In this document: positions 40,691 to 57,586 of the stretch, one piece after another
How the letters are laid out: each line of letters starts with the position of its first letter
How positions within the stretch are numbered: position 1 is the first letter of the stretch
Origin: Candidatus Thorarchaeota archaeon
Lineage (GTDB): Archaea; Asgardarchaeota; Thorarchaeia; Thorarchaeales; Thorarchaeaceae
Assembly: GCA_019057475.1 (NCBI GenBank)
Contig: DXJO01000008.1
Coordinates: forward strand, 73,943-137,942
Reading direction: 5' to 3'
Length of the DNA stretch: 64,000 nt
The notes under the pieces: model-generated
Database searches by the model: none
What the model was told of the DNA's origin: nothing
Seen by the model: the letters and a program-made list of their open reading frames with translations, nothing else
Program-made: the position numbers and the translations under genes

Positions 40691-40789
40691 TCCCAAAGAT
40701 TGGCCTCCTTCTAAGGTTACTACTTAATAGGAAATCAGATTCCTGAATTTGAATGCGGGAGGTTATTGATAGTGTCAACAAAGGATAAG

Positions 40790-43700
40790 ATGCGCCCACA
40801 ATTTTCACATAATGATGCTGTCAGACTAGCCAAGACGATATATGGTATTGATTGTGCTGCAAGGGAATTGCCAAGTGAACGTGATAGAAACTTTCTGCTC
40901 ATTACTAAAACCAATGAGAAATACGTGATGAAAATTTCCGCAACCTCTGAATCCCGAGATGTCATTGATTGTCAAAATGCCGCGTTGCAGCATATCCAAG
41001 AGGTTGATGAATCAATAGCGATTCCAAGAATAATTCATTCTCTTAATGGAGAATTTGTTCCGCTTATTTCGACCGAAGTGGGACATGAGCATTTCATAAG
41101 ACTATTGACATATCTCCCGGGACGAGTATTCGCGAAAATTAATCCGCATACTATGAAACTGATGGAAGATTTCGGAAAATTCATGGGGTCCCTTTCTAGG
41201 GCATTAGAGAGCTTTTCGCACCCTGCTGCTAATCGCGACTTCTACTGGGATTTGAAAAACTCACCTCAAATGATTGTTGAATATAGAGAATTGATTAGTG
41301 ACAAGAAGAAAAGGGAAATTTCAGACTATTTCTACAATCTATTCGATCAAGAAGTAGTACCCCATATCCGAGAATTAAGGTCAAGTATAGTGCATAATGA
41401 CGCAAACGATTACAATGTGGTCGTTGATACAAATTGGACTAATGATTCGAGAAAACTCGGAATTTTTGATTTTGGTGACATGTTGTTTACTTGCACAATA
41501 TTTGAGCTAGCAATTGCTACTGCGTACGCAATATTAGACCATGATGATCCAGTAATGGCTGCAGCTGCAATGATTAAGGGGTATCACTCAGTATTTCCAC
41601 TAACAGAACTAGAAATGAAAGTTCTATTTCCAGCTATATGTGCAAGATTACTATCTAGTGTTTGTGTATCAGCATACCAGCAGTTTCTGGAACCAGAGAA
41701 TGAATACTTGGCGATAACTGAAACTCCCGCATGGCGGACTCTCAGCAGACTTAGAAAAATGCATCCTAAACACGTTTGGTACATCTTCAGAGATGCATGT
41801 GGATTTCCGCCAAACCCAGAAAACCCGAGAATAGTAAAATGGATAACCGATAATGAAAGTCACTTTGGCAATGTTCTGACTAAAAGCATGGAAGAATACA
41901 AGTCCGTAGTAATTGACCTAAGTGTCGGTAGTCTAGATTTCGAGTATCCTGAGGATGTCGTGGTTTTTAAAAGATTTTCTAGAATAATACAGAATAAGAT
42001 GGACGACCACAAGGCAGAGATTGCTTTTGGTCGATACGATGAAAGTCGTCTTATCTACACCGGTGACCAATATTCAGAGAATGAAGATCTCGTACAGAAT
42101 TCAAGAGTAACCCATCTTGGTATTGATATCTTTTCACCACCTAAAACTCCCATTTTCGCACCTCTAGATGGTATCGTTCATTCACTGAAAAACAATGACA
42201 TTCCATTAGATAATGGACCAACTATTATCCTTGAACATAACCCCACTTCAGATACTAAGTTCTATACACTCTATGGACATCTAAGTCTGGACTCAATTAA
42301 CGGACTAATAATTGGACAGAAAATAAGTAAAGGAGATGAAATTGCGCGCATAGGGGATTACCCTAAGAATGGTGGATGGCCTCCACATTTACATTTTCAA
42401 ATAATCACAGATATGTTGGACGTGGAGGGGAATTACAATGGAGCTTGTGGGGTAAATCAACGTGATGTTTGGCGAAGCATTTGTCCTGATCCAAATTTGA
42501 TTCTAAAGATTCCAGAAGATAAGTTTCCAGACCCTCTCCTAACTAAACAAGAGATATTACAGACTAGACAGGAGTATATTGGACCAAATCTGAGTGTTTC
42601 CTATAAAGAGCCATTGAAGATTGTAAGAGGATACATGCAGTACTTGTATGATGAAGATGGAAAGAGATACCTTGACGCAGTGAATAATGTTCCCCACGTC
42701 GGTCATTCAAATCCAAATGTGGTTAAAGCTCTACAGAAACAAGCAGCTGCACTTTATACAAATACTAGATACTTGCATGATAACCTTGTTAGGTATGCGG
42801 AGAAACTTATTGAAAAAACGCCAGAACCACTTAGTGTCTGTTATTTCGTGAATAGTGGAAGTGAAGCAAACGAACTTGCATTGAGATTAGCTAGAACACA
42901 TACTCAGCGAGATGGAATTATCATTGTGGATGATGCGTATCATGGAAACACCGATACCTTAGTCGATCTTAGTCCATACAAACACAAAGGACCCGGAGGA
43001 CGTGAACCACCCACACATGTAGTCTCAGTTTTCAAAGCAGATCCATTCAGAGGGAAGTTTGGTTCTGATGACTCCAAGGCCGGAGAGAAATACGCTTCTT
43101 ATATCAAAGATTTTGCTATACCAAGGTTGGAAGAAAGCGGTCATCCTGTAGCTGCATTCATTTGCGAACCCGTTATGAGTTGTGCAGGACAAATCGTATT
43201 TCCAAAGGGATACCTAAAGAAAGCCTATGAGCACGTAAGAAATGCGGGAGGCGTGTGCATAGCAGATGAAGTGCAGATTGGATTCGGTAGAGTTGGAAGT
43301 CATTTCTGGGGGTTTGAAACACAAGGAGCCATACCGGATATTGTAACTATGGGTAAACCAATAGGAAACGGACATCCATTAGCAGCTGTTGTTACAACCC
43401 CAGAGATAGCAAAATCATTCGACAATGGAATGGAATTCTTCAGCACTACGGGTGGAAACACTGTTTCATGTGCAGTTGGACTAGCTGTTCTTAATGAGAT
43501 CGAATCAAAGAACTTGCAGGAGAATGCATTCTCTGTTGGAAAACATATGAAAGAAAAACTGCTCGATCTGAAAAAGAAATACCCTCTCATTGGAGATGTA
43601 AGAGGTCTCGGACTGTTTCTTGGTGTTGAACTAGTAAAAGACCAGGAAGAATTGTTTGAACCAGCAGCAGAAGAAGCAACATATATTGTCAATAGGATGA

Positions 43701-43855
43701 AAGAACTTGGAGTATTAATTAGTGTGGATGGATATCTTCGTAATGTCCTCAAGATCAAACCCCCAATCATATTCTCCAATGAGGATGTAGATTATTTTAT
43801 TGAACGTCTGGAAACCGTTCTTAACGAAGATTTTCCGAGCGGTATTATAGAATAA
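40790..43855 (+). CDS. Tri-domain fusion: aminoglycoside/hydroxylysine-kinase-like phosphotransferase (APH) - M23 peptidase - class III aminotransferase (AGXT2-like, possible phospho-lyase)
   Basis: APH-type N-terminus (HNDANDYNVVVD, FDFGD). M23 (HLGIDIF...DGIV...YTLYGHLS...GGWPPHLHFQI). Class-III aminotransferase (DDAYHGNTD, ICEPVMSCAGQI, DEVQIGFGRVGSHFWGFE, TMGKPIGNGHPLAAV with the PLP Lys). Markedly AT-richer than its flanks. Confidence 0.8.
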   Translation: MRPQFSHNDAVRLAKTIYGIDCAARELPSERDRNFLLITKTNEKYVMKISATSESRDVIDCQNAALQHIQEVDESIAIPRIIHSLNGEFVPLISTEVGHEHFIRLLTYLPGRVFAKINPHTMKLMEDFGKFMGSLSRALESFSHPAANRDFYWDLKNSPQMIVEYRELISDKKKREISDYFYNLFDQEVVPHIRELRSSIVHNDANDYNVVVDTNWTNDSRKLGIFDFGDMLFTCTIFELAIATAYAILDHDDPVMAAAAMIKGYHSVFPLTELEMKVLFPAICARLLSSVCVSAYQQFLEPENEYLAITETPAWRTLSRLRKMHPKHVWYIFRDACGFPPNPENPRIVKWITDNESHFGNVLTKSMEEYKSVVIDLSVGSLDFEYPEDVVVFKRFSRIIQNKMDDHKAEIAFGRYDESRLIYTGDQYSENEDLVQNSRVTHLGIDIFSPPKTPIFAPLDGIVHSLKNNDIPLDNGPTIILEHNPTSDTKFYTLYGHLSLDSINGLIIGQKISKGDEIARIGDYPKNGGWPPHLHFQIITDMLDVEGNYNGACGVNQRDVWRSICPDPNLILKIPEDKFPDPLLTKQEILQTRQEYIGPNLSVSYKEPLKIVRGYMQYLYDEDGKRYLDAVNNVPHVGHSNPNVVKALQKQAAALYTNTRYLHDNLVRYAEKLIEKTPEPLSVCYFVNSGSEANELALRLARTHTQRDGIIIVDDAYHGNTDTLVDLSPYKHKGPGGREPPTHVVSVFKADPFRGKFGSDDSKAGEKYASYIKDFAIPRLEESGHPVAAFICEPVMSCAGQIVFPKGYLKKAYEHVRNAGGVCIADEVQIGFGRVGSHFWGFETQGAIPDIVTMGKPIGNGHPLAAVVTTPEIAKSFDNGMEFFSTTGGNTVSCAVGLAVLNEIESKNLQENAFSVGKHMKEKLLDLKKKYPLIGDVRGLGLFLGVELVKDQEELFEPAAEEATYIVNRMKELGVLISVDGYLRNVLKIKPPIIFSNEDVDYFIERLETVLNEDFPSGIIE

Positions 43856-45329: not shown

Positions 45330-45794
45330 GTGATAACACAATGGGTTTTGGAAGTAAAACCACAACCTCGGCCCATCGATGTCGGGTCGCAGAGTCAACA
45401 GGTGAGTGTCAAATTAGCCAACGAGGCGAATGTGTTCTCCAGTAGCCATCAGGTTTCTGAACAGTTCACTCATACTGCTGACAAGCCTACTTTTGAGAGT
45501 CTTGCTGCATCATTCCTACGGTTAGCCGACCTAAGGTTGAGCAGCACTCAGAAGACCGTCTTGAGAATGAGTGCCCAACTCTTGGAGCACCATCGTCTAA
45601 CGGTTACTGGGCTTGCAGATTTGCTATCCCGACGAAGCACTGTTCCATATTCGACTGCGAAATGGAATCTGCGTTCTTTGATGGACTTGGGGCTGCTTGC
45701 TGGGGGCAATGCCCAGTGCAGAGGATTGCAAGCAAGTCTGACCCCCTCTGGGCGGATGTTAGCTGCATATCTCGAAGAATCTGATGTAGACTGA
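45330..45794 (+). CDS. Hypothetical protein, possible winged-helix
   Basis: 154 aa. TVTGLADLLSRRSTVPYSTAKWNLRSLMDLGLL looks like a wHTH. Confidence 0.3.
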   Translation: MITQWVLEVKPQPRPIDVGSQSQQVSVKLANEANVFSSSHQVSEQFTHTADKPTFESLAASFLRLADLRLSSTQKTVLRMSAQLLEHHRLTVTGLADLLSRRSTVPYSTAKWNLRSLMDLGLLAGGNAQCRGLQASLTPSGRMLAAYLEESDVD

Positions 45795-46862: not shown

Positions 46863-48098
46863 GTGACCACTCTTACTGTCGACCAGCTCGACAAATGGTA
46901 TCGAAAGCGCTTGGCAACGCAGTCGAAGGACTTCATCAAACGCGCTGAGAAAAGCCATAAGAATGTAAGCCAGACTCTCAAGGATGTTGGGACGATTGCA
47001 GGGGATCTGGAAGACAATGCAAAAGACGATTCTGAAACCATTGGGATTGCCAGCCGATTTGCAATGAAACTGGACGGCATTGTCAAGAGATTCGAAGTTA
47101 AGCAGGATATCACATACGAAAGCACTGAGGCCATGCAAGAGGAGATTCAGCGCTTTATCCAGGAGTTGTGGGGTGCCGGTGCTCGCTGGATTCGCAGGAT
47201 GGATAAGAGGCACAAGAATACAATCAAAATGCTTGACACCTACATGAAGGAGCTTTCTAAGGAGATGAAGGTCCTTGGTAAGTTGCTTTACGAGTTCAGC
47301 TGGGTCAAGGACTTGGAACGCATTGGTGGGCGAATCCAGACATTGAGCGAACTAACCTACAGCGCTGAGGGGTTCGAGGAGCAGATCCGTCAGATTCAGC
47401 TCAAGATTGACGCGGCCACGAAAGAGCATTCAACTGCTGCGCAAGCTTACAATGAATTCACTGAAACATCTAATGTCGCAGAGCTGCTCTCGCTAGACGA
47501 GGAATCGGAGCACATCGCTGCGCTGCTCCGGATGAGGCTCAGCCCTTTGAAAAAACAAGTCAAGAAGTTCATGCAGCGTGATACCGGTGTGAGGGTGTCC
47601 CCTTCCAGTCAGAGAGCATTGGCCAATTACTTCGAGGATCCTCTGACTGCAATAATTGCAGAGCCTGATGGCACTCCTGGCTTAGTTGAGGGTCTAGAAG
47701 GCTTGCAGAAAGCTCTTGACACCGGCAAGTTGAAACTTAAGGACCGGCTAGCACGTCGTGCTTCTGAGGAGATTGAAGCGATAAAGAATGGCTCCATAAG
47801 CAATCTTCAACTACAAGCAAAGGAACTGGACGAGAAGCGTCGAACTTTCGCAGGGTCAGATGTTTACAAGAAAAGCGCCGCCCTCGCAGAGCGTTTGAAC
47901 GAAGCTTCAAGGAACTTGGAGTATCATACGAATGACCTCCTAAAGGTTGGAGCTGACATTAGGAAACAGATAGCTCGAGTTGAAGAATTCAAAACACGCA
48001 TTGAATCCGAGATACTGGAATTCTTTGAAGACACAATCTCAATTAAAATCGATAAGCTAGGTTTGGAGCCATTACTGGCACGTTGCGTCGTTAGCTGA
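46863..48098 (+). CDS. Hypothetical coiled-coil protein
   Basis: 411 aa. Helical heptad-like and charged throughout. GTG start. Confidence 0.4.
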   Translation: MTTLTVDQLDKWYRKRLATQSKDFIKRAEKSHKNVSQTLKDVGTIAGDLEDNAKDDSETIGIASRFAMKLDGIVKRFEVKQDITYESTEAMQEEIQRFIQELWGAGARWIRRMDKRHKNTIKMLDTYMKELSKEMKVLGKLLYEFSWVKDLERIGGRIQTLSELTYSAEGFEEQIRQIQLKIDAATKEHSTAAQAYNEFTETSNVAELLSLDEESEHIAALLRMRLSPLKKQVKKFMQRDTGVRVSPSSQRALANYFEDPLTAIIAEPDGTPGLVEGLEGLQKALDTGKLKLKDRLARRASEEIEAIKNGSISNLQLQAKELDEKRRTFAGSDVYKKSAALAERLNEASRNLEYHTNDLLKVGADIRKQIARVEEFKTRIESEILEFFEDTISIKIDKLGLEPLLARCVVS

Positions 48099-48099
48099 C

Positions 48100-48939
48100 T
48101 TGAGGTGCGCAGCCTTGCGAATTCTTGTAACATCGGAAAAGGATATCGCCAGCCAAACGATTCGAAACGTCCTGATAGAAGAACATGGATTCCTGGAAAC
48201 CGGAGATACATTCGAGGGCAATCCGATTCTATCATCAGATGAATCGATCTTACTGATTACTTCTACTCGTGACATGATTTTCTGTAACCATCTGGAGTCG
48301 CACTTTGATGCCGAAGTGTTCATCTTCTGTTCGCGCCACAGGGCTGAATCCGGACAACCTGCCTTGCTGGTCCACAGTACAGGCAACCTTGGTCAAGAAG
48401 CGCTCTTTGGTGGTAATCCCCAACATCTCTCCGTATCAACAGCATCTCTGGTAGCAGTCGCTCTGAAACGGCTTTACAAAGAACAAGCAGATCGCAAATT
48501 GGATGCCTTCGATGTGACAATGGAAGTCACACACCATGGGCCCACCACAATGAATGCCCCCCTGTTGTTTATCGAACTGGGCAGCGATGAAGCCCACTGG
48601 CGACACGAGGAAGGTGCGCGTGCAGTTGCTGCAGCGGCACTCGACTGCGCAAGAGAGCCGTTTGCAAAAGATGCAGTCATCGGGTTTGGGGGTACACACT
48701 ACGCCAGCAAATTCAACAAATTAGTTTTGGAGCGCAATCTGCGTGTTGGTCATATGGCTCCGAAATACGCAATACCTGGTCTAACTCGCGATGTTGTACT
48801 TCAGATGATGAATAGGTCTCGCGAAACCGTGAAGACCGCCGTTATCGATTGGAAAGGCACAAACGCTGAGCAAAAGGCGCACCTCCTCCCGCTGCTTGAA
48901 AGTCTTGGCCTGGATGTTGTGCGAGCAAAGCGCGTATAG
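48100..48939 (+). CDS. dtdA: D-aminoacyl-tRNA deacylase, archaeal DTD2 type
   Basis: Matches archaeal DtdA by eye: ILVTS..D, EVTHHGPT, LLFIELGSDE, GFGGTHYA, HMAPKYA, IDWKG. TTG start; the true start may be 48115. Confidence 0.85.
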   Translation: MRCAALRILVTSEKDIASQTIRNVLIEEHGFLETGDTFEGNPILSSDESILLITSTRDMIFCNHLESHFDAEVFIFCSRHRAESGQPALLVHSTGNLGQEALFGGNPQHLSVSTASLVAVALKRLYKEQADRKLDAFDVTMEVTHHGPTTMNAPLLFIELGSDEAHWRHEEGARAVAAAALDCAREPFAKDAVIGFGGTHYASKFNKLVLERNLRVGHMAPKYAIPGLTRDVVLQMMNRSRETVKTAVIDWKGTNAEQKAHLLPLLESLGLDVVRAKRV

Positions 48940-49090
48940 ACTTCAGGTGCCCTTTCTCACTCATTCACGGTTCTCAACGATTCCTGATGTCCCCCACAGC
49001 GTTGTTTTACGTTTTCGTAATCTTCTCCCGAAAGCCTAAATACCGGACTCACATCTCAAGCAGCACTCACACGCCCAAGTAGGGGAAATT

Positions 49091-50122
49091 ATGTCCACCC
49101 TAAAAGACGCAGCATCTAACAAGCTTGAAGAAAAAGTTGACAAACTGGCAGAGAGTCTAGCCACGATTGTCAACGAGCTAAAAGTGCTTTCTTCTGTCAA
49201 GGACATGGCCAAGAAGATGGGCGCGCTAGAAGCAGAAGTCAATGACATTAAGACGGCACTAGATCCATTGTCCAAGATTGATGATTTGCTCGCCTCAGTC
49301 AATGGCATCGACAAGAATGTCGTTGGGATTGTCGAGTCAAGGGAGTACGAGGTCGTTCTGAAGAAAATTGATGATCTTCTGGTGTCCTCTCAAGACTTGG
49401 ATGCGGGACTAGCAGAGATTAGGAACTCCAATGCCTTGAGTGAGCTTGGAAAGAAGGTGGAGGCGGTGTCAAGCTCGGTGTCAGACATTAGCAAGAACAT
49501 CGAGTTCACTCGCGCAGGGCGCAGTCTCGAAACGCTGGAAACCAAGATTGATGACCTTCAGCAGTATGTCGCTGGTCTCTCATCGCTGGAAAGCAGCATT
49601 CAGGACCTCTCCGGGACATTTGATGAAACCCGTGAGATAGTCAGTATTATCGTGCGACAGTTGGATGACATTGAGCGCAAATACAACAAGTCAGTTGAAG
49701 AGATTCGCAAGGTTGTTGAAGATGTTTCACAGGTGACCCGTACGGTTAGTGAAGATCCATCTGCAATCAAGACAACTAAGAAAACCGCGAAGACTACAAA
49801 GCGCAAGGAAATTGAAAAGAAGACTCCGCCTGCGGCTGAGGAGATAGTACTCCCTGGCACAATCGATGGAATCATGAAGCATCTTCTGGAAAAGGTATCC
49901 CCTGCAACTGAGGCTGTTGAGATGGCCAACGCATTGGAGACCGTTCGGGACCAATTGACCACGATGATTACTGGCGGTACCCCTGTCTTGTTCCAGTTCG
50001 GCAAGAGAGCGAGGGAGCTCAAATCGTACCCACCAACCGCAACTTTGAACGAGAATGACATTGCTCGACTCAACAGTGAAATCCGCAACTGGTCAACCAA
50101 GCTAAAGGAAGTTACCAAATAG
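49091..50122 (+). CDS. Hypothetical coiled-coil protein
   Basis: 343 aa, helical, with a Lys/Thr-rich linker. Confidence 0.4.
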   Translation: MSTLKDAASNKLEEKVDKLAESLATIVNELKVLSSVKDMAKKMGALEAEVNDIKTALDPLSKIDDLLASVNGIDKNVVGIVESREYEVVLKKIDDLLVSSQDLDAGLAEIRNSNALSELGKKVEAVSSSVSDISKNIEFTRAGRSLETLETKIDDLQQYVAGLSSLESSIQDLSGTFDETREIVSIIVRQLDDIERKYNKSVEEIRKVVEDVSQVTRTVSEDPSAIKTTKKTAKTTKRKEIEKKTPPAAEEIVLPGTIDGIMKHLLEKVSPATEAVEMANALETVRDQLTTMITGGTPVLFQFGKRARELKSYPPTATLNENDIARLNSEIRNWSTKLKEVTK

Positions 50123-50344
50123 GATTCGGCCTTTCTCTGTCCCGTTTGGAGTCTAATGCTTCCAACTTGTCCCAGACAATCGCAATTGCACGTAATTACT
50201 GCATTATCCCGGTTGACCACGCGCATAACTTTATTTCATTGAAAGCACAGATGCGCAATTGAATCTCGCTCGCGACTGTTTGGGTCGTTAACGAGGGTTG
50301 ACCATCTTGGTCATAGTACTACTGGGCTATCTTTAAGCAACGGG

Positions 50345-51172
50345 TTGAAAACTAAAATGAAACTGAAGAAGCATAACACGACTTTCGCCACTAAAATGGA
50401 CTTGTTGGATGTGACAGCTGATAATCAGCTGGCGAAAGAGCTAATGGAATTGCACGAAAACAAGTGTCGTGTGTGTCAAGAGGATCGATTAAGCTGCACA
50501 GTGCGTCCTTCGTGCAAAAACAGGAATTTCCTGAACATGTTGATTGAACTGGGTATTGAACCTGAGGATCTCCCAAGTTTCTGTTACAGCCAGTATCTCA
50601 ATCATGTCCAGAGGTTCGTTACGGAGCAGAAGGGACGCCGAATGATTGACCGCAGGCTTCCAATCAAAGATTTCCTCTCAGCACTGCGTGTGAGTTCGAT
50701 TAGACACTTCACAACGAAGTTCAAGAAGACTTGGTCCAAGTCGGCCTTAATTCAAAGAAAGAATACCATGCTTGTGGCTGGTGACGGTCTGCTTTTCCAC
50801 TTTGACTTTGCTCGCGGCATAGTCGTAATGAATCCCGTGCACGTAAAGATCAAAAGCCTTGAAGTGTTCAAGCTCTACGCAGACTTGTTCTCGAAGTACT
50901 ATGACTTGAAGTCAGAGGTTAAGGATGTAACTCTGAACTGGTGGATACTCAGTATCGCGGTTGATGTTGAGGGCACTGTTGAGAGTATAAAGCCTGTAAA
51001 AAGCAAACTCTCTGGCAGTTTTGATGCTCTCAATGTAGAAGCATTTGAGAATGTCGTAAACATTCATGCTGAGGTCATTATCGATGAGAATCGGAAACCT
51101 CTCTTTGTGGATGACATTGAGAAGGCATTCACTGTGAGCTCCAAGCTGAGATTGGGCGAGATTAGTAACTAG
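50345..51172 (+). CDS. Hypothetical protein with N-terminal Cys cluster
   Basis: CRVCQEDRLSC...C near the N-terminus. 275 aa. Confidence 0.35.
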   Translation: MKTKMKLKKHNTTFATKMDLLDVTADNQLAKELMELHENKCRVCQEDRLSCTVRPSCKNRNFLNMLIELGIEPEDLPSFCYSQYLNHVQRFVTEQKGRRMIDRRLPIKDFLSALRVSSIRHFTTKFKKTWSKSALIQRKNTMLVAGDGLLFHFDFARGIVVMNPVHVKIKSLEVFKLYADLFSKYYDLKSEVKDVTLNWWILSIAVDVEGTVESIKPVKSKLSGSFDALNVEAFENVVNIHAEVIIDENRKPLFVDDIEKAFTVSSKLRLGEISN

Positions 51173-51196
51173 GTAGTACAGTCCAGATTCTGAGTC

Positions 51197-54100
51197 TTGG
51201 ACTGTCATTGGATGGGATGCAATTTGACTGAGAATGCAGTTGTAGAATATATGCCTGTCTTGAAGGCGAATCTAGGTCTAACAGACCTTGAAGCCAAGGT
51301 TATGCTGCCCATTTACTTGGGCGGGAACATGACACCTGGCGCCGTCGCCATGATTTCGGGCGAGAAACTTCCCAGAGTGAATCGCACTCTGGGTAGATTA
51401 GAAAGTAAAGGATTTGTCGTTAAGGTCGAGGGTGTAGTGCCTATTTTCAGACCAGTTCCGGCAGTACTCTCCATGACTGGTGAGCTCAATTCTATGGTTG
51501 AGAATATCGAGGGATTGGCGCATGCCTCTCTCAGTGCATTGGACAACCAGATACAGCAAACTGAGGAGTCGGCTGTTGAGATTAGGGACACGCAAACCAC
51601 AGCAAGTGAGCGCACAAGGACAATCCTAGAGAATTACGAAAACAAAATGCTTCAAACCGTGCTGAGTCAGGTAGAGCTAGTCGTCGATACTGCGACCAAT
51701 GTCTTGACTGGGTACTCACAGAAAATCGAAGAAGCAGTGACAGGGCTGGACACGAGTCTGGATGACGCTCTGGGGATAAAGCTGGCGGACCTTCAAGCTG
51801 AACTGGATAAAAGCCAGATACAACTCAAGCAGGACCTCAAGGTGATATCCCGCGACTTTGACAAGGGCGTCAAACGGGAACGTGCGCCCTCACTAACTGC
51901 ACTATCGGATTTCGATAAGAAAGTCCAAGCGCTCATCAAGAAGTCAAAGAACGCAGTTTCCACTGCACTCACAGACTCAGAAAAAGCAATTCAGAGTGTA
52001 TCCCTTGATGTGTCCCAGAAGACAAGCTCACAGGTTCTTGGCACCATTGATAAGACTCTTGTAAATCTCGGTTCTTCAGCAGATTCCTTGACTGCATCTC
52101 TCGATCAGTTAGACAAAGATCTCAGTCAAGCATCAAGGGTCGCTCATGACTCACTCACCTCTCTGATAAGTCAAACAAGATTGATGTCGAACGAGCAGGC
52201 GGATCTAACTCGCATAAAGATTCTCAATGCATTCAAGGTCACCGAATCTGCTACTGACGCACTAGATTCCTGGAAAACAGATGTCAGAGGAATCATGGAT
52301 GTTGCATCCCACTCCATGACCGCGCAGTTCGAGCAGGCGGCAGTGACAGAGCGAAACTACCTAGATGCAAACAAGAATACACTTGTAGCCTATCTTGACA
52401 AGATTCGCACCATTGTTAGTGAGGAGTACAGCACTCTCCAGAGCTTGGCAGTGGCGATTGACAGTGAGTTCGCCAAGCATCTCGACGAAACCAAAATATC
52501 GATGATGGGCTTATTCCGCAACGAGCTTGAGGCTGACGAAACAACCCTTGAGGTCGCAACTGAGAAGCTACGCAAAGACTTGAACCGATGGTCAACTAAA
52601 ACGGGGCGGTCAGTTAGAAGGAAAGCGTCGAAGGCTGGCAAAGAGGTGATCGAGGTTCTTGATGGCAAAATTGCTGAAGTAGACACCATGACCGAGAAAA
52701 TGTTCAACGAGGTCAAGTCTTCGCTTGGTGCAGTCACCGCAACGGCGGGCACTAAGAACGAAACAATTCTCACTGCCATTAATAAGAGCGCACAGAAATT
52801 CGAGAAAGATGTTGATGCTAAACTTGGGGGTGTCACTACACGTTTTTCCTCGATAGCGGACAAGTACGTCACTGGAGCGGGAGTGCTCTATGAAAATCTA
52901 AATACAAGATTCGACGACCGAGTCAGTCAGTCAGTCAAGTCCTTGAGTTCGAGCGTAGAGCGAGCACGACAAGAGATTGACACCATGATGGAAGACCAGA
53001 TGACCAGAATTGATTTCCATGCCTCTGAGATTCGAAAGGAGTTCCACATGCAGGTTGAGGATATCTCAAGGCAGTTCATTAACATGACTCAAGGATTGGA
53101 AGCTGCTTTCGGAGGGCTTGTGGCGAGTCAGATAGTCGAAACACGCGATTTCATCGCATCCACACACACCGAGTTCAATGCAGCTCTGAATGCTGAGATG
53201 AATGCTCTTCGAGATGATTCCGAGAAGCTCCAAGTCGGGTATTCCTCAGAGATGACTCAACGCATAGAGAATCTCCGAGATTCGGCGAGTGTAATGCGCA
53301 AGACCCTAGAAGAGCTTGCCAAGGAGAAACGGCTGGAGATGTCCTCCTCCATAGCGGGCACGCTAACTCAGCTTGAAAGTGCGACAAATGAAATACAGAA
53401 ATCGCTTGAGAGCCTCGAAACAGATACGATTAAGGAAATCAATGATGACCTAGCAGAGTTCTCCGAGGAATTCACAGAGGCTCTTACGACGGCCAAGACG
53501 AACCTCACTGATCAGCTTTCAAATCTCAGTGAAGCAACTACAACCGACCTGGAGCGGGGAACAAAGCTTGTCAGGGACATAGCAGACTCTTACTTCACGG
53601 AGCACATGGATTCCCATCAGAGGCTTATCGCAAGCACGAGCAAAAAACTAGATTCACTCTCAACTGCCATAACTACAGGATCATCCCGTAAGGTTGAGGC
53701 GTTTCAAGCGAATCTTGCGAAGTCTGAGAAGACTGGACTACGTGGAAGGAATGCTGTGAAGACCGAGATAGCGGAAGCAATAGAGAACCATAGGACAGAA
53801 GCCAGTCAGGCGTTTGAGGGGGCTGCTGCGCGGGTTGATTCCGGTCTATCGAACACAGCTGATTCTATTACAATACTTGGTGACAAGCTCAACAACGACT
53901 TGATGGCGGTTCAGCAGCAAATCGCCCGGGCAGCCAACGATGCCGCGAAGCTTCTCGCAGAGAAGAGCCGCGAAAATTTAGAAATACTTGAAGAAACGGG
54001 AGTTTCGCTCTTCCAGAAGGCGGAGGATACTTTCCGGGAGCACGCTGTAACCTTTGGCAACACAAGTGCTGCCGCATTAAAACAAGGTGAGGATAGCATG

Positions 54101-55111
54101 TCCGACCTACCAGAGCTCATTTCAGATATCGTGGATGGCTGTCTCAAGCAAGCGATAAGTGACGCATCGAAGGATTTCGGCGATGTTACGGGCAATCTGA
54201 CTGGATCTTTCTCAGAGTGTGAAAGATCTGCTGAATCCGCAGCCACTGAATTCAAGGAGTTCGTGGAGCGGGTGTCAATGAATGTGACGAAAGTTCGTGA
54301 TTCGGCCTTTGAGAATTCCCAACAAAGTGTTCTCTTGGCCAACCAACATGCATCTAGGAAATTCGAGTCGATCGGTTTGGACCTAAGAGCGCGTTTCAGC
54401 ACTGAATCGCATGGGCTGATTGAAGCTGTGCGAAATGACTCTGCAGCAAGAACACTACAGGTTACCAATGCAGGGATAAAAGCAACAAATGCAGCTGAAG
54501 AAACAACAGCGGTCCTGTCACAGTCGCGGAGCGAGGCGTTTAACAAACTGGCCACATCCACGGACAAGACCTTGACTCGCTGGGCGAACAACGAGAAGAA
54601 ACAAGCAACATCCTTGCACAAACAAGTGGAAGAAACAGCAACCAGTTTGACAGAATCTGTCAATAGGACTGTGGAAACTATGGAGGCAGTTCGTAAAGCT
54701 GGTGAAGGATTATTGAAGGTTTCAGCTGAGAAGACATGGTATCTGACAGGCGAGGATGAAACATGTGCTTACATCATGGACATGGTGCAGAGGGCTGAGG
54801 AATCTGTGGTCGTATCCGTTCTGAGCACAGAGTGTTTAGATCTGAAGAAACTGAGTAGGATGAAAGCACCAAAGCGAAGAGTGCTCATCGTACCCCATAC
54901 AGACGAACCAGCGCTTGAGGATTTGCACGGTTGGCGAATATGGCACGTGAAGACACCTGTACTCTTTGCGGTAGCAGATGACCGTGAGATTTTTCTAGGC
55001 GGGGCGGAGGAGTCTGACTTCCCGCTTGGCGTTGTATCCACGGACGAAGCGTACGTGCGCCTCTACCACGATGTTATAGGCCCCCGGCTTATACGTAGTC
55101 GAGTCCAATAG
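51197..55111 (+). CDS. TrmB-like protein: N-terminal TrmB-type HTH, ~1100-aa coiled-coil, TrmB-C-like C-terminal domain
   Basis: LGLTDLEAKVMLPIYLGGNMTPGAVAMISGEKLPRVNRTLGRLESKGFV is a TrmB-type HTH. The long middle section has a repetitive helical composition. The C-terminus reads TWYLTGEDETCAYIMDMVQRAEESVVVSV...RRVLIV. Confidence 0.5.
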   Translation: MDCHWMGCNLTENAVVEYMPVLKANLGLTDLEAKVMLPIYLGGNMTPGAVAMISGEKLPRVNRTLGRLESKGFVVKVEGVVPIFRPVPAVLSMTGELNSMVENIEGLAHASLSALDNQIQQTEESAVEIRDTQTTASERTRTILENYENKMLQTVLSQVELVVDTATNVLTGYSQKIEEAVTGLDTSLDDALGIKLADLQAELDKSQIQLKQDLKVISRDFDKGVKRERAPSLTALSDFDKKVQALIKKSKNAVSTALTDSEKAIQSVSLDVSQKTSSQVLGTIDKTLVNLGSSADSLTASLDQLDKDLSQASRVAHDSLTSLISQTRLMSNEQADLTRIKILNAFKVTESATDALDSWKTDVRGIMDVASHSMTAQFEQAAVTERNYLDANKNTLVAYLDKIRTIVSEEYSTLQSLAVAIDSEFAKHLDETKISMMGLFRNELEADETTLEVATEKLRKDLNRWSTKTGRSVRRKASKAGKEVIEVLDGKIAEVDTMTEKMFNEVKSSLGAVTATAGTKNETILTAINKSAQKFEKDVDAKLGGVTTRFSSIADKYVTGAGVLYENLNTRFDDRVSQSVKSLSSSVERARQEIDTMMEDQMTRIDFHASEIRKEFHMQVEDISRQFINMTQGLEAAFGGLVASQIVETRDFIASTHTEFNAALNAEMNALRDDSEKLQVGYSSEMTQRIENLRDSASVMRKTLEELAKEKRLEMSSSIAGTLTQLESATNEIQKSLESLETDTIKEINDDLAEFSEEFTEALTTAKTNLTDQLSNLSEATTTDLERGTKLVRDIADSYFTEHMDSHQRLIASTSKKLDSLSTAITTGSSRKVEAFQANLAKSEKTGLRGRNAVKTEIAEAIENHRTEASQAFEGAAARVDSGLSNTADSITILGDKLNNDLMAVQQQIARAANDAAKLLAEKSRENLEILEETGVSLFQKAEDTFREHAVTFGNTSAAALKQGEDSMSDLPELISDIVDGCLKQAISDASKDFGDVTGNLTGSFSECERSAESAATEFKEFVERVSMNVTKVRDSAFENSQQSVLLANQHASRKFESIGLDLRARFSTESHGLIEAVRNDSAARTLQVTNAGIKATNAAEETTAVLSQSRSEAFNKLATSTDKTLTRWANNEKKQATSLHKQVEETATSLTESVNRTVETMEAVRKAGEGLLKVSAEKTWYLTGEDETCAYIMDMVQRAEESVVVSVLSTECLDLKKLSRMKAPKRRVLIVPHTDEPALEDLHGWRIWHVKTPVLFAVADDREIFLGGAEESDFPLGVVSTDEAYVRLYHDVIGPRLIRSRVQ

Positions 55112-56120: not shown

Positions 56121-56582
56121 ATGCCACAAGGAAAGCGTCGAAAGAAGTCCAGACCTAGGAAGAAGAAACCACGCTATCTCTTCAAGATTACAGTGGTCGG
56201 ACCCGATGATAAGCTGCTTGAGGAAGTACTTAGTGTGCTGAGCGCAGAAGTTATTGCCGTTGACGGAATTCGGATTAGCTCAGCGGCGGTGACCGTGGAG
56301 AAGACAGATGTTAAGACCCTCTTCATGTCACCAAGGCATTCAGCTCTTGACATCCTGTTATCTGTGACTTTTGCGGGTGCCAGCGGAGCAATCATTGTTC
56401 TCAAGGAAGCAGATTCAGAGATGGAAACTCTCTACAGAAACGAAGTTCGGGAGAAAATCGGTGCCGGCGTGCCCACACGTGTTATCGCGATTGGATCTGG
56501 AATGGATGACTTCAAGAGAAACGAGATTGCTGTTCTCTTGGATGAGATGGTTGAAGAGATACTCTCTGTCAAAGTACACTAG
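56121..56582 (+). CDS. Hypothetical protein with basic N-terminal tail and P-loop-less GTPase-like beta-alpha pattern
   Basis: The N-terminus is MPQGKRRKKSRPRKKKPRY. LFKITVVGPDDKL sits where a G1 box would be but carries no GK[ST]. Confidence 0.3.
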   Translation: MPQGKRRKKSRPRKKKPRYLFKITVVGPDDKLLEEVLSVLSAEVIAVDGIRISSAAVTVEKTDVKTLFMSPRHSALDILLSVTFAGASGAIIVLKEADSEMETLYRNEVREKIGAGVPTRVIAIGSGMDDFKRNEIAVLLDEMVEEILSVKVH

Positions 56583-56641: not shown

Positions 56642-57586
56642 TTGGTGTCATTCGTGAGCTCAGATGAAAAAGATGAAAATTATTGGCTCGGAGTCCGTGA
56701 TGGACTTAGGATGGTGGACTCCTTCGTAAGATGGTCAGCTAGGCATAAAGACAAGGCCAAGAATCTGCAGGAATTTATCTCCGAAGGACTGATCGCGGCC
56801 GCGAAGCGATGCGAGTCGTGTTTGAGCACGACATTAGGTCTTACTTTCGGAGAGTCGCTGGGTGGCCTATCTCCGGATGATTTGCTTGAACCTGCCGATC
56901 CGAAGGACAGATTGCCGACGCATTATGAGGAACCAGCAGAGGAAAAAGATAATGCTGTTCCGGATGATGAAGTGCCGGCCACTGAGGATTTGAGTCCCGA
57001 ACCGAAATTCGAGTCAGAACCAGAGGCAAGCTCAGAAGTCGAGTCTACGTCGATTGAGGCCATCGAGCGAATGGAAGATACTGAAATTGAAGATATGCAT
57101 CTTGAGGGGCCTTCAAGGGACTTTGGAACCGAATTCGAGCTAGGTGAGCCAAGCCCCTTGACAATCGAACCTGAAGTTGAAGATCAGGAGTTGTCTGTTT
57201 CAGAAGCTTCGGAACCAGTGGAACCTTCTGAGCCTGAGCATACTGATGTGATTAAGGATGAAGTCGATGACGCTTCACTATCGACGGAGTCTGGGCTCAC
57301 ATGGAGTGAGTACGAGGACACTATTGCTCCCCCCAAAACAACTGGTACACCTACCTCTGAAGAGCGTGTGACCGAAACCGAGCCTTCAGAGACGCCTACG
57401 AAATGGAGCCCCATTGATGAGCCCATGGTATCAGAGGACGAGCCAGCTGAGGAAGAAGTTGAATCTCCTGACGAAGTTGACAAAGAAGTGCCCGAAGTCG
57501 AACCCCCGCCACCTCCACCGCCAGAATCTGATGAGAGTGAGGAAGAGCGAAGGCGTAGGGCACGAAGATTATTCTTCGGCACGTAG
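56642..57586 (+). CDS. Acidic low-complexity (Glu/Asp/Pro/Ser-rich) protein, likely disordered
   Basis: EPEVEDQELSVSEASEPVEPSEPEH ... PPPPPPPESDESEEERRRRARRLFFGT. Confidence 0.4.
   Translation: MVSFVSSDEKDENYWLGVRDGLRMVDSFVRWSARHKDKAKNLQEFISEGLIAAAKRCESCLSTTLGLTFGESLGGLSPDDLLEPADPKDRLPTHYEEPAEEKDNAVPDDEVPATEDLSPEPKFESEPEASSEVESTSIEAIERMEDTEIEDMHLEGPSRDFGTEFELGEPSPLTIEPEVEDQELSVSEASEPVEPSEPEHTDVIKDEVDDASLSTESGLTWSEYEDTIAPPKTTGTPTSEERVTETEPSETPTKWSPIDEPMVSEDEPAEEEVESPDEVDKEVPEVEPPPPPPPESDESEEERRRRARRLFFGT

What the first reader, a model, noticed from the sequence alone, without database searches (positions are those of the whole stretch)
46863..55111. Cluster of coiled-coil proteins including a TrmB-like regulator split by a ~1100-aa coiled coil
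Three plus-strand genes encode long helical coiled-coil proteins of 411, 343 and 1304 aa. The largest begins with a recognisable TrmB-type HTH (…GAVAMISGEKLPRVNRTLGRLESKGFVV…) and ends with a TrmB-C-like domain (…CAYIMDMVQRAEESVVVSV…RRVLIV…). More than 1000 residues of repetitive, apolipoprotein-like coiled coil separate the two. A transcription-factor DNA-binding module attached to a filament-forming, SMC-like or cytoskeleton-like rod is unusual. It could tether DNA to a structural element.
Basis: partly seen in the sequence, partly recalled or inferred. Interest (0 to 1): 0.6.

Follow-up and report, generated by a model that had tools for sequence, protein, structure and literature searches.

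The report
Giant two-headed TrmB rod protein
A Thorarchaeota (Asgard archaea) gene encodes a TrmB-type DNA-binding protein whose short dimerisation helix has grown into an unbroken helical rod of about 1,077 residues (about 160 nm) with strictly conserved length, most likely a two-headed DNA strut not described in the literature I could search.

Summary
The ORFs are real. The 1304-aa ORF (51197..55111) is not an artefact: 46 Thorarchaeota genomes encode it at 1291-1308 aa. Its N-terminus is a TrmB winged-HTH (Pfam, above threshold). Its last ~125 aa are homologous to the first subdomain of the TrmB effector domain; the sugar-binding subdomain is missing, as in TrmBL2.

The rod is neither repetitive nor a heptad coiled coil. 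It is about 98 consecutive 11-residue (hendecad) units, with one sharp periodicity peak at 3.66 residues. There are no indels across 37 orthologs down to 26% identity, apart from one tandem duplication in one lineage.

Charge complementarity and charge covariation both peak where residue i faces residue ~1254-i. The two halves therefore pair antiparallel about F627, and the helix pattern is unbroken there. I favour an antiparallel homodimer with one HTH and one C-domain at each end. This is the domain-swapped TrmB dimer stretched to about 160 nm.

The family occurs across Asgard lineages with rods of varying length. Its conserved partner is the overlooked 271-aa five-cysteine protein directly upstream, not the 411- and 343-aa "coiled-coil" genes.

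DNA binding, oligomeric state and function are untested. A fixed-length DNA bridge is inference.

The parts
51197..55111 (+). Giant TrmB-family rod protein gene. The ORF is 1304 aa from TTG 51197. The likely start is ATG 51212 (1299 aa) or TTG 51224 (1295 aa).
   Evidence: Orthologs start at MGCNL.../MTENAV.../MSDEAV.... A conserved SD-like GGTGGGATG lies about 8 nt upstream of the start in most orthologs.
51260..51463 (+). TrmB-type winged helix-turn-helix (aa 22-89).
   Evidence: Pfam PF01978, 34.5 bits against a cut-off of 25.6. TrmBL2 5bpd E=0.0067. TrmB's Tyr50/Asp51 are replaced by N62/R63 in that alignment.
51482..54712 (+). Unbroken hendecad (11/3) alpha-helical rod, aa ~96-1172: about 98 hendecads, about 160 nm if fully helical.
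   Evidence: A Fourier transform of MSA-averaged hydropathy gives a single peak at T=3.66 with power/variance 111 and nearly constant phase. Core positions are a/e/h, plus partly d/i. There are no indels in 37 orthologs apart from one duplication. Net charge is -47 and no TM segment is present.
52037..52279 (+). Register-drift segment (aa ~281-361), where the hendecad phase advances by about one residue.
   Evidence: The phase track moves from -113 to +8 degrees over this stretch. This matches the best antiparallel core register changing from i+j=1254 (inner) to 1255 (outer), derived from the residue classes.
53042..53149 (+). Most conserved part of the rod (aa 616-651), containing the inferred two-fold axis at F627 (53075..53077), an 'a' core position.
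   Evidence: Conservation is highest here. Mirror symmetry of conservation centres at 629.5-631.5. Charge complementarity and covariation minima fall at i+j=1253-1256. The hendecad amplitude stays high across aa 623-631.
54725..55108 (+). C-terminal domain (aa ~1177-1304), homologous to the first (PLD-like) subdomain of the TrmB effector domain. No sugar-binding subdomain follows.
   Evidence: A profile of this domain hits canonical 250-273-aa TrmB proteins P0098 (E 6.9e-7) and P0115 (E 1.4e-5). It does so in the stretch where Pfam Regulator_TrmB matches them above threshold. The direct Pfam hit is E=0.036, profile positions 3-92 of 233.
50345..51172 (+). Conserved partner gene 'g275' (likely start 50357, 271 aa): five invariant Cys (CxxC-x6-C-x5-C...C) followed by an alpha/beta domain with no known relative.
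   Evidence: A homolog lies immediately upstream of the giant gene in Thor (all loci with that region), Frey, Hel (two loci) and Baldr. AF2 gives pLDDT 80 and pTM 0.71. Foldseek against the PDB finds nothing below E=0.04.
51174..51210 (+). Inverted repeat or RNA hairpin between the g275 stop and the ribosome-binding site of the giant gene.
   Evidence: The window has ACAGTCCAGA...TCTTGGACTGT. Another Thor clade has CTGACAA-N~25-TTGTCAG at the same place. RNA fold z-scores are only -1.0 to -1.7. Whether this is an operator or an RNA structure is unresolved.
46863..48098 (+). 411-aa helical protein. It is syntenic only within Thorarchaeota and is not a long coiled coil.
   Evidence: Its length is fixed at 408-425 aa, and it is about 60% identical across the class.
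49091..50122 (+). 343-aa protein: a variable-length heptad-like coiled coil (aa 1-215), a K/T-rich linker, and a conserved C-terminal ~90-aa domain. It is syntenic only within Thorarchaeota.
   Evidence: Ortholog lengths range from 277 to 370 aa.
48100..48939 (+). D-aminoacyl-tRNA deacylase (archaeal DtdA type) lying inside the interval. It is not part of the system.
   Evidence: Pfam tRNA_deacylase, 212 bits; NCBIfam PRK03995.

Best explanation
The 1304-aa gene encodes a TrmBL2-like member of the TrmB family. It has a winged HTH and the first effector subdomain, but no sugar-binding subdomain.

In ordinary TrmB proteins a dimerisation helix of roughly 30 residues links the two domains. Here that helix has expanded to about 1,077 residues of uninterrupted hendecad coiled coil.

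Two chains most likely pair antiparallel over the whole rod, so that residue i faces residue ~1254-i and the two-fold axis passes through F627. This would give a stiff rod of about 160 nm. Each end would carry one HTH from one chain next to one C-domain from the other chain. That is the domain-swapped TrmB dimer geometry pulled apart.

Inferred function: a fixed-length, two-headed DNA-binding strut that bridges or spaces two DNA segments. It probably works with the conserved upstream five-cysteine protein (g275).

Shown: domain homologies, periodicity, length invariance, antiparallel register, phyletic spread and gene pairing.
Inferred: homodimer rather than hairpin, DNA binding, bridging, and the role of the partner.
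For: Domains:
- TrmB HTH above the Pfam threshold, with TrmBL2 as the best PDB relative.
- The C-domain profile reaches canonical TrmB proteins exactly where Regulator_TrmB matches them.
- Regulator_TrmB is also the top direct Pfam family for the C-domain.
- 64 of 123 representative hits carry both end domains.

Rod:
- Single spectral peak at 3.66 residues, power/variance 111.
- Core pattern a/d/e/h.
- Zero indels across aa ~18-1237 in 37 orthologs at 26-92% identity, apart from one duplication.
- Freyarchaeota P0059 has an unbroken phase over aa 67-1123.

Antiparallel register:
- Of about 1,200 possible registers, the charge product is most negative at i+j=1256.
- Charge covariation is most negative at 1255 and 1253, z about -4.
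- The same holds separately for the outer and inner arms, z -4.6 and -5.4.
- It also holds in two random halves of the sequences, and a translation control shows no such peak.
- The contributing pairs flank the core, for example b-b'.
- From the core residue classes, I calculate that i+j=1254 pairs a-a', e-h' and h-e' exactly.
- The conservation profile is mirror-symmetric about aa ~630.
- The only length variant is a tandem duplication of aa ~512-742. Its ends sum to 1254, so it is symmetric about the axis and preserves every antiparallel pairing. It is inherited in two lineages that are 80% identical.

Dimer rather than hairpin:
- The hendecad amplitude is high across aa 623-631.
- Divergent orthologs have no Gly/Pro/Asn there.
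- The TrmB coiled coil pairs F81/I91' and F84/L88', which is antiparallel between chains (PMC4158304).

Partner: a g275 homolog lies directly upstream in four Asgard classes.
Against:
- The charge signal cannot separate an intermolecular dimer from an intramolecular hairpin or a four-helix assembly.
- A scan for side-chain-volume and hydropathy covariation gave no peak at the predicted register (51 sequences, low power).
- The N-arm register drift at aa 281-361 has no mirrored drift at aa 894-974. The antiparallel pair must therefore absorb a one-residue mismatch.
- Single-sequence scans in other phyla were mostly noise. Only P0082 matched.
- TrmB's DNA-recognition Tyr50 is not conserved (N62 here), and each end would carry only one HTH. 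DNA affinity is therefore unproven.
- The link to g275 rests on synteny only, and it is absent beside the gene in the Hodarchaeota and Atabeyarchaeia loci.
- AF2 on the C-domain was of low confidence (pLDDT 47).
Confidence: 0.5

Rival explanations
1. Intramolecular hairpin (SMC/Rad50-arm-like). Each chain folds back at about aa 627 into an ~80-nm antiparallel two-helix arm. Its own HTH and C-domain sit side by side at one end, as in a non-swapped TrmB monomer, and the conserved central segment forms a tip for dimerisation or partner binding.
For: The same antiparallel register evidence applies, as does the mirror symmetry. The central segment is the most conserved part of the rod and holds conserved G633/G640. 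The TrmB review describes the coiled-coil helices as the 'hinge loop' of a domain swap, so a closed form is conceivable.
Against: The hydrophobic hendecad pattern is strongest exactly at aa 623-631. Divergent orthologs have ordinary helix-forming residues there. The conserved glycines lie 6-13 residues beyond the axis. The dyad-symmetric duplication in L028/P0036 would move the turn to a junction never selected to be a turn. Freyarchaeota P0059 shows no break anywhere in the rod.
Confidence: 0.2
2. Parallel in-register dimer. Two HTHs sit at one end, as a canonical operator-binding pair, and two C-domains sit ~160 nm away. DNA would be tethered to some other structure.
For: Any periodicity shift is trivially compatible with in-register pairing, including the unmatched drift at aa 281-361. 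Paired HTHs would bind DNA better than single ones.
Against: It does not explain why charge complementarity and covariation have their global minima at i+j=1253-1256 in every sub-region. It also does not explain the mirror-symmetric conservation. Nor does it explain why the only tolerated length change is symmetric about the midpoint; my rough estimate of that arising by chance is about 1%. The TrmB coiled coil itself is antiparallel.
Confidence: 0.08
3. Lipid- or membrane-surface-binding amphipathic helix built on 11-mers, like apolipoproteins, perilipins or alpha-synuclein, with the HTH as an add-on.
For: The periodicity is 11/3 and there are sub-threshold Pfam Apolipoprotein/ApoLp-III hits.
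Against: The seam is narrow: strongly hydrophobic residues occupy only a/e/h, which I calculate as an arc of about 65 degrees, with d/i partly hydrophobic. The rod has net charge -47. There are no proline-punctuated 22-mers and no sequence repeats. The Pfam score is 53 against a threshold of 90. Inter-arm charge covariation indicates helix-helix pairing.
Confidence: 0.03
4. An ordinary gene-specific transcription regulator whose long helix is only a spacer or sensor with no architectural role.
For: It belongs to the TrmB family. An inverted repeat sits just upstream of its own start, which could be an autoregulatory operator.
Against: A passive spacer would not keep about 1,077 residues free of indels at 26% identity. 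It would also not be expected to keep a precise inter-arm register. The recognition Tyr50 is lost. Several lineages keep two or more paralogs with different rod lengths.
Confidence: 0.1
5. Assembly artefact or fusion of several genes.
For: None found.
Against: The same colinear ORF occurs in 46 independent MAG loci and in many metagenome sources, with near-identical length.
Confidence: 0.01

Closest known systems
TrmBL2 / TrmB family (Thermococcales; PDB 5bpd, 3qph)
   Same: Homologous N-terminal winged HTH. Homologous first subdomain of the effector domain. Like TrmBL2, it lacks the sugar-binding subdomain. A helix between the two domains pairs antiparallel with the partner chain.
   Different: The linking helix is about 1,077 residues instead of roughly 30. 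The recognition Tyr50/Asp51 are replaced. In the favoured model the two HTHs of a dimer are ~160 nm apart instead of side by side. A dedicated Cys-rich partner gene is present. The family appears confined to Asgard archaea.
Sso10a (Sulfolobales chromatin protein)
   Same: A winged HTH followed by a helix that forms an antiparallel coiled-coil dimer. Sso10a1 bridges DNA (PMC4941522).
   Different: Sso10a is about 95 aa with a short rod. No homology was tested, it has no C-terminal TrmB-type domain, and it has no hendecad register.
SMC / Rad50 / MukB arms
   Same: Very long antiparallel coiled coils that organise DNA, with N- and C-terminal parts meeting at the rod ends.
   Different: There are no ABC ATPase head, hinge domain or zinc hook. 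The pairing is probably intermolecular. The periodicity is hendecad rather than heptad.
RacA (Bacillus subtilis chromosome anchor; my own knowledge, not checked here)
   Same: The logic of HTH + coiled coil + C-terminal interaction module for tethering DNA.
   Different: RacA is about 180 aa with a short coiled coil. It is not homologous as far as I know.
Right-handed hendecad coiled coils (rotary-ATPase peripheral stalks, PMC6131620; tetrabrachion, my own knowledge)
   Same: The 11/3 periodicity with an a/d/e/h core gives straight or slightly right-handed rods.
   Different: Those run for tens of residues up to a few hundred. Here there are about 98 consecutive hendecads, antiparallel, with DNA-binding ends.

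Membership tests
TrmB family | N-terminal TrmB-type winged HTH (PF01978) | tested here: met
   34.5 bits against a gathering score of 25.6, aa 22-89. TrmBL2 is the best PDB hit.
TrmB family | Effector-domain first subdomain (Regulator_TrmB PF11495, profile positions ~3-130) | tested here: met
   The direct hit is below threshold: 13.8 against 22.2 bits, E=0.036. It is still the top family and matches 4 of 16 orthologs. A profile of the domain hits canonical TrmB proteins P0098 and P0115 (E 6.9e-7 and 1.4e-5). It does so in the same stretch where PF11495 matches them above threshold.
TrmB family | Sugar-binding second subdomain (PF11495 positions ~130-233; Gly320/Glu326 of TrmB) | tested here: not met
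   The protein ends about 125 aa after the rod, and the Pfam match covers profile positions 3-92 only. This matches the TrmBL2/TrmBL3 state described in PMC4158304.
TrmB family | Recognition-helix Tyr50/Asp51 | tested here: not met
   In the phmmer alignment to TrmBL2, 'PRTYDVL' aligns with 'PRVNRTL' (N62/R63). Orthologs have N/Q/K/E at this position.
TrmB family | Helix between the DBD and EBD that pairs antiparallel with the partner chain | tested here: inconclusive
   The antiparallel register is strongly supported statistically. Whether it is inter- or intramolecular is not resolved.
SMC/Rad50/MukB | Split ABC ATPase head at the N and C termini | tested here: not met
   The big protein has no SMC, Rad50 or AAA head-domain hit in Pfam or NCBIfam; the only AAA entry is a sub-threshold AAA lid match in the rod.
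SMC/Rad50/MukB | Hinge domain or CxxC zinc hook at the coiled-coil apex | tested here: not met
   No cysteine lies near aa 627; the cysteines are at 3, 8, 982, 1008, 1190 and 1213. The helical pattern continues through the centre.
Apolipoprotein A1/A4/E (PF01442) | Score above the Pfam threshold; proline-punctuated tandem 22-mers | tested here: not met
   53.4 against 90 bits. Two prolines lie between aa 100 and 1175. No internal repeats by self-BLAST.
ZorA (Zorya defence) | MotA/ExbB-type transmembrane domain preceding the tail | tested here: not met
   PADLOC ZorA models match only their tail region, profile positions 265-612, E 6.8e-11. No TM segment is present: maximum 19-residue hydropathy is 1.47.
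Sso10a-type wHTH plus antiparallel coiled-coil chromatin proteins | Sequence or structural homology to Sso10a | not tested
   Only the architectural analogy was taken from PMC4941522.

The most novel reading that the evidence does not exclude
Asgard archaea encode a family of rigid, two-headed DNA struts of defined length: about 160 nm in Thorarchaeota, with other lengths and several paralogs elsewhere. The struts would set fixed distances between DNA segments or between chromosome copies, as a ruler-like nucleoid scaffold. No such system is known in bacteria or other archaea. It would be functionally reminiscent of eukaryotic coiled-coil chromosome spacers such as synaptonemal-complex transverse filaments. 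The Cys-rich partner would act as its loader or regulator.
Probability: 0.2. Interest if true: 0.9.

Novelty: new variant of a known kind. Interest (0 to 1): 0.8.

Why it matters
- **Family context.** TrmB proteins are known as small sugar-responsive regulators or, for TrmBL2, as chromatin proteins. Here the same two end domains are separated by one of the longest uninterrupted hendecad helices I am aware of. Its length is held constant to the residue across a whole archaeal class.
- **Implied role.** This pattern points to a mechanical or measuring role rather than a regulatory one.
[quoted passage not shown] Little is known about how these organisms organise their DNA.
- **Testability.** The model gives a concrete, purifiable candidate for a nucleoid-architectural element. 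It predicts ~160-nm rods with identical ends, i-to-(1254-i) contacts, DNA bridging at a fixed distance, and binding to a specific partner.
- **Method.** Long antiparallel coiled-coil registers can be read from charge covariation in only about 50 sequences when no indels are present.

Tried and rejected
- **AF2 on the C-domain.** With a 16-sequence alignment the model had pLDDT 47, too poor for fold search.
- **Direct PDB search with the C-domain.** No hits.
- **Profile search with sub-sequences of orthologs.** I used short fragment proteins instead.
- **Central hinge idea.** I first thought the conserved GLEAAFGGL motif at aa 633-641 was a hairpin apex. I rejected it as the turn because the register places the axis at aa 627, the helical pattern is continuous there, and the motif is not conserved outside Thorarchaeota.
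- **Volume and hydropathy covariation scan for the antiparallel register.** No signal.
- **Single-sequence charge scans in other Asgard lineages.** Noise, except for P0082.
- **Rod alignment between phyla.** Only 12-14% identity with unreliable gaps. Conservation of length across phyla (~1300 aa in Thor, Frey and others) cannot be shown to be homologous position by position.
- **Defence-system reading.** The PADLOC ZorA, JetC and LmuB hits are coiled-coil composition matches only.
- **Functional link of the 411- and 343-aa genes to the giant gene.** Rejected, because they are absent from the Frey, Hel and Hod loci checked.
- **Literature searches.** Searches for TrmB + Asgard + coiled-coil, Thorarchaeota + coiled-coil + HTH, and hendecad + archaea found no description of this protein.


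Full report
**Observation.** The interval holds five plus-strand ORFs:
- 411 aa (46863..48098);
- a D-aminoacyl-tRNA deacylase (48100..48939; Pfam 212 bits);
- 343 aa (49091..50122);
- 275 aa (50345..51172);
- 1304 aa (51197..55111).

A GNAT acetyltransferase converges on the end of the last one. The big ORF's start is probably ATG 51212 or TTG 51224. Orthologs begin MGCNL/MTENAV/MSDEAV, and most have an SD-like GGTGGGATG about 8 nt upstream.

**Not an artefact, and where it comes from.** The word-index search found eight proteins: five full-length relatives at 88-91% identity, two truncated ones at 88%, and one colinear relative at 36% (P0008, 1297 aa). A scan of one genome per species returned 46 loci. 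All titles that give a class say Thorarchaeota. All 36 ORFs complete at both ends are 1291-1308 aa, except one lineage at 1536 aa.

**End domains.**
- The N-terminus is a TrmB-type winged HTH: PF01978, 34.5 bits against 25.6. The nearest solved relative is TrmBL2. In that alignment TrmB's recognition Tyr50/Asp51 correspond to N62/R63, so the DNA specificity must differ.
- The last ~125 aa gave no direct PDB hit. They gave only a sub-threshold Pfam Regulator_TrmB hit: E=0.036, profile positions 3-92 of 233. It was nevertheless the top family.
- A profile of this domain was searched against 1.84 billion representatives and gave 126 hits. These include canonical 250-273-aa TrmB proteins: P0098 at E 6.9e-7 and P0115 at E 1.4e-5. 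They are hit in the stretch where Regulator_TrmB matches them above threshold.
- The C-domain is therefore the first subdomain of the TrmB effector domain. The sugar-binding subdomain is absent, as in TrmBL2 (PMC4158304).

**The rod.**
- Residues ~96-1172 contain two prolines and no internal sequence repeats.
- Local hydrophobic periodicity is 3.66-3.68 residues, not 3.5.
- With hydropathy averaged over 33 orthologs, the whole rod gives one sharp Fourier peak at 3.66 (power/variance 111). The phase is nearly constant throughout.
- The exception is a drift of about one residue spread over aa 281-361.
- Position-specific composition is a textbook hendecad. Large hydrophobic residues make up 67% at a, 56% at e and 52% at h. 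Positions d and i are partly hydrophobic, and the rest are S/T/E/D/K.
- This makes about 98 consecutive hendecads, or about 160 nm as a continuous helix. Net charge is -47 and there is no TM segment.
- Across 37 full-length orthologs at 26-92% identity, MAFFT places no gap anywhere between aa ~18 and 1237, apart from one 232-aa insertion in L028.
- The same holds for 51 de-duplicated sequences, with a gap fraction of 2e-5.
- By contrast, the neighbouring 343-aa protein's coiled coil varies from 277 to 370 aa.
- The rod protein is also the fastest-evolving gene in the neighbourhood: about 35% identity against 50-65% for its neighbours. Sequence drifts while length and register are frozen.

**How the rod is paired.** The TrmB dimerisation helix pairs F81/I91' and F84/L88', that is, antiparallel between chains. 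I therefore tested for a two-fold axis.
1. The conservation profile is mirror-symmetric, with its best centre at aa 629.5-631.5. This holds after removing the broad trend, with r of about 0.5-0.6.
2. I scanned every possible antiparallel register i+j=S, about 1,200 values.
   - The charge product is most negative at S=1256 (z -3.5 to -3.8).
   - Charge covariation with column means removed is most negative at S=1255 and 1253 (z -4.1 and -4.0).
3. The result holds for independent parts of the rod.
   - Outer arm, aa 95-280: minimum at S=1253, z -4.6 of 706 values.
   - Inner arm, aa 361-620: minimum at S=1256, z -5.4 of 292 values.
   - aa 200-450: minimum at S=1255, z -4.7 (all).
   - It also holds in two random halves of the sequences, and a translation control shows no such peak.
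4. The contributing pairs are core-flanking positions, notably b-b'.
5. From the residue classes, S=1254 aligns a with a', e with h' and h with e' in the inner rod. S=1255 does so for the outer arm, which matches the one-residue drift.
6. The L028 insertion is a tandem duplication of the preceding 232 residues, 65% identical. In window numbering it covers about aa 512-742, whose ends sum to 1254.
   - A duplication symmetric about the axis preserves every i-to-(S-i) pairing in an antiparallel pair.
   - The form is inherited: P0036 is 80% identical over all 1536 residues.

A scan for side-chain-volume covariation gave no signal. This is the main negative result.

**Dimer or hairpin.** The charge data cannot tell these apart. 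I favour an intermolecular antiparallel homodimer for four reasons:
- The axis falls on F627, an 'a' position, where the hendecad amplitude is at its highest.
- Divergent orthologs have ordinary helix-forming residues there.
- Freyarchaeota P0059 has no phase break anywhere between aa 67 and 1123.
- The duplication would relocate a hairpin turn to an unselected junction.

In this model each rod end carries the HTH of one chain beside the C-domain of the other. That is the domain-swapped TrmB arrangement stretched to about 160 nm. My rough odds are dimer or even-numbered oligomer 0.65, hairpin 0.2, parallel about 0.1.

**Family and partner.**
- Hits to the C-domain profile range from about 220 to 1794 aa, always with the domain at the C-terminus.
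- 64 of 123 also carry the Thor-type HTH.
- Named members come from these lineages:
  - Thorarchaeota;
  - Freyarchaeota/Sigynarchaeota (1302 aa);
  - Helarchaeota (1104, 1123, 1245 and 1732 aa);
  - Hodarchaeota (804-808 and 968 aa);
  - Baldrarchaeia (1238 aa);
  - Atabeyarchaeia (1107 and 1162 aa in one complete genome);
  - Njordarchaeota (1094 aa);
  - Jordarchaeaceae (a 620-aa partial).
- Several genomes hold two or more paralogs with different rod lengths.
- All members tested show hendecad periodicity. Outside the ~1300-aa class they have more phase shifts and more prolines.
- The wider neighbourhood, from g166 through the giant gene to ThiF, is conserved in almost every Thorarchaeota locus that spans it. 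That reflects class-wide synteny rather than a specific link.
- Outside Thorarchaeota only the gene directly upstream persists. Homologs of the 271-aa g275 precede the giant gene in Freyarchaeota (E 1e-32), in two Helarchaeota loci and in Baldrarchaeia. They are absent from the Hodarchaeota and Atabeyarchaeia loci.
- g275 has five invariant cysteines (CxxC-x6-C-x5-C...C) and net charge +8.
- Its AF2 model is confident (pLDDT 80, pTM 0.71) but has no significant PDB neighbour.
- The 411-aa protein is a fixed-length helical protein without long coiled-coil periodicity.
- The 343-aa protein has a variable heptad-like coiled coil plus a conserved C-terminal domain.
- Neither was found in the three non-Thor loci checked for them: Frey L049, Hod L050 and Hel L051.

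**Function (inference).** The protein has a TrmB/TrmBL2-type HTH at both ends of a stiff rod of invariant length. It has no enzyme domain and no membrane segment, and it has a dedicated metal-cluster-like partner. The best-supported reading is a two-headed DNA-binding strut that bridges or spaces DNA at a set distance. Precedents for the logic are TrmBL2 as a chromatin protein and Sso10a. Sso10a combines a winged HTH with an antiparallel coiled-coil dimer, and Sso10a1 bridges DNA. DNA binding itself is untested, and the loss of Tyr50 is a caution.

**Rivals.** The lipid reading is disfavoured by the narrow seam, the acidic charge and the inter-arm covariation. The plain regulator is disfavoured by the frozen length and register.

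**Literature.** Full-text searches found no description of this protein.

**Verdict.** What is there is more unusual than proposed. It is a pan-Asgard family of TrmB-derived hendecad rods. In Thorarchaeota the rod is an antiparallel, two-fold symmetric, ~160-nm molecule of invariant length, paired with an uncharacterised Cys-rich protein.

Noticed in passing
window 51174-51210 (between the g275 stop and the start of the giant gene): An inverted repeat, ACAGTCCAGA-N7-TCTTGGACTGT. Another Thor clade has a different one (CTGACAA-N~25-TTGTCAG) at the same place, just 5' of a conserved SD-like GGTGGGATG. It could be an RNA hairpin or an autoregulatory operator. RNA fold z-scores are only -1.0 to -1.7.
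   Followed up: partly
window 40766-43855 (+): A 1029-aa three-domain fusion (APH phosphotransferase + Peptidase_M23 + class-III aminotransferase). It lies in the only low-GC stretch of the window (0.40-0.42 against about 0.49), which may mean acquired DNA.
   Followed up: partly
L051:11330-12586 and L054:1677-2975: In both Helarchaeota loci an Orc1/Cdc6 gene lies 1-4 kb from the g275 + giant gene pair. This hints at proximity to a replication origin. It is not seen in the Thorarchaeota neighbourhood.
   Followed up: no
P0108/P0127 (Atabeyarchaeia), P0062/P0130 (Helarchaeota ACTSO9), P0064/P0306 (Hodarchaeota ACFE68): Single genomes or assemblies carry two paralogs of the rod protein with different lengths (1107/1162, 1732/1104 and 968/808 aa), as if they kept a set of rods of different sizes.
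   Followed up: partly
window 56642-57586 (+): A 314-aa protein that is extremely acidic (net -62), rich in Pro/Glu/Ser, and ends in PPPPPPP...RRRRARRLFFG. It is syntenic across Thorarchaeota and has no Pfam family.
   Followed up: no
window 45330-45794 (+): A 154-aa protein with a faint TrmB-like HTH (E=0.14). It is conserved upstream in the same synteny block.
   Followed up: no
P0056 (359 aa, from the representative search): This protein matches the C-domain profile at E 5.8e-19 but also carries DDE transposase domains. It may be a rod gene disrupted by, or fused to, an insertion sequence.
   Followed up: no
giant protein, charge-product scan: A secondary minimum at i+j=1546 (z about -3.3) appears in both halves of the data for the mean-charge product but not for covariation. 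It may be noise or a hint of a staggered inter-rod contact.
   Followed up: no
window 56121-56582 (+): A 153-aa protein with a very basic N-terminus (KRRKKSRPRKKKPR) followed by 'FKITVVGPDD', a strand-loop motif that looks like a small GTPase or Roadblock domain. It has no Pfam hit and is conserved in synteny.
   Followed up: no
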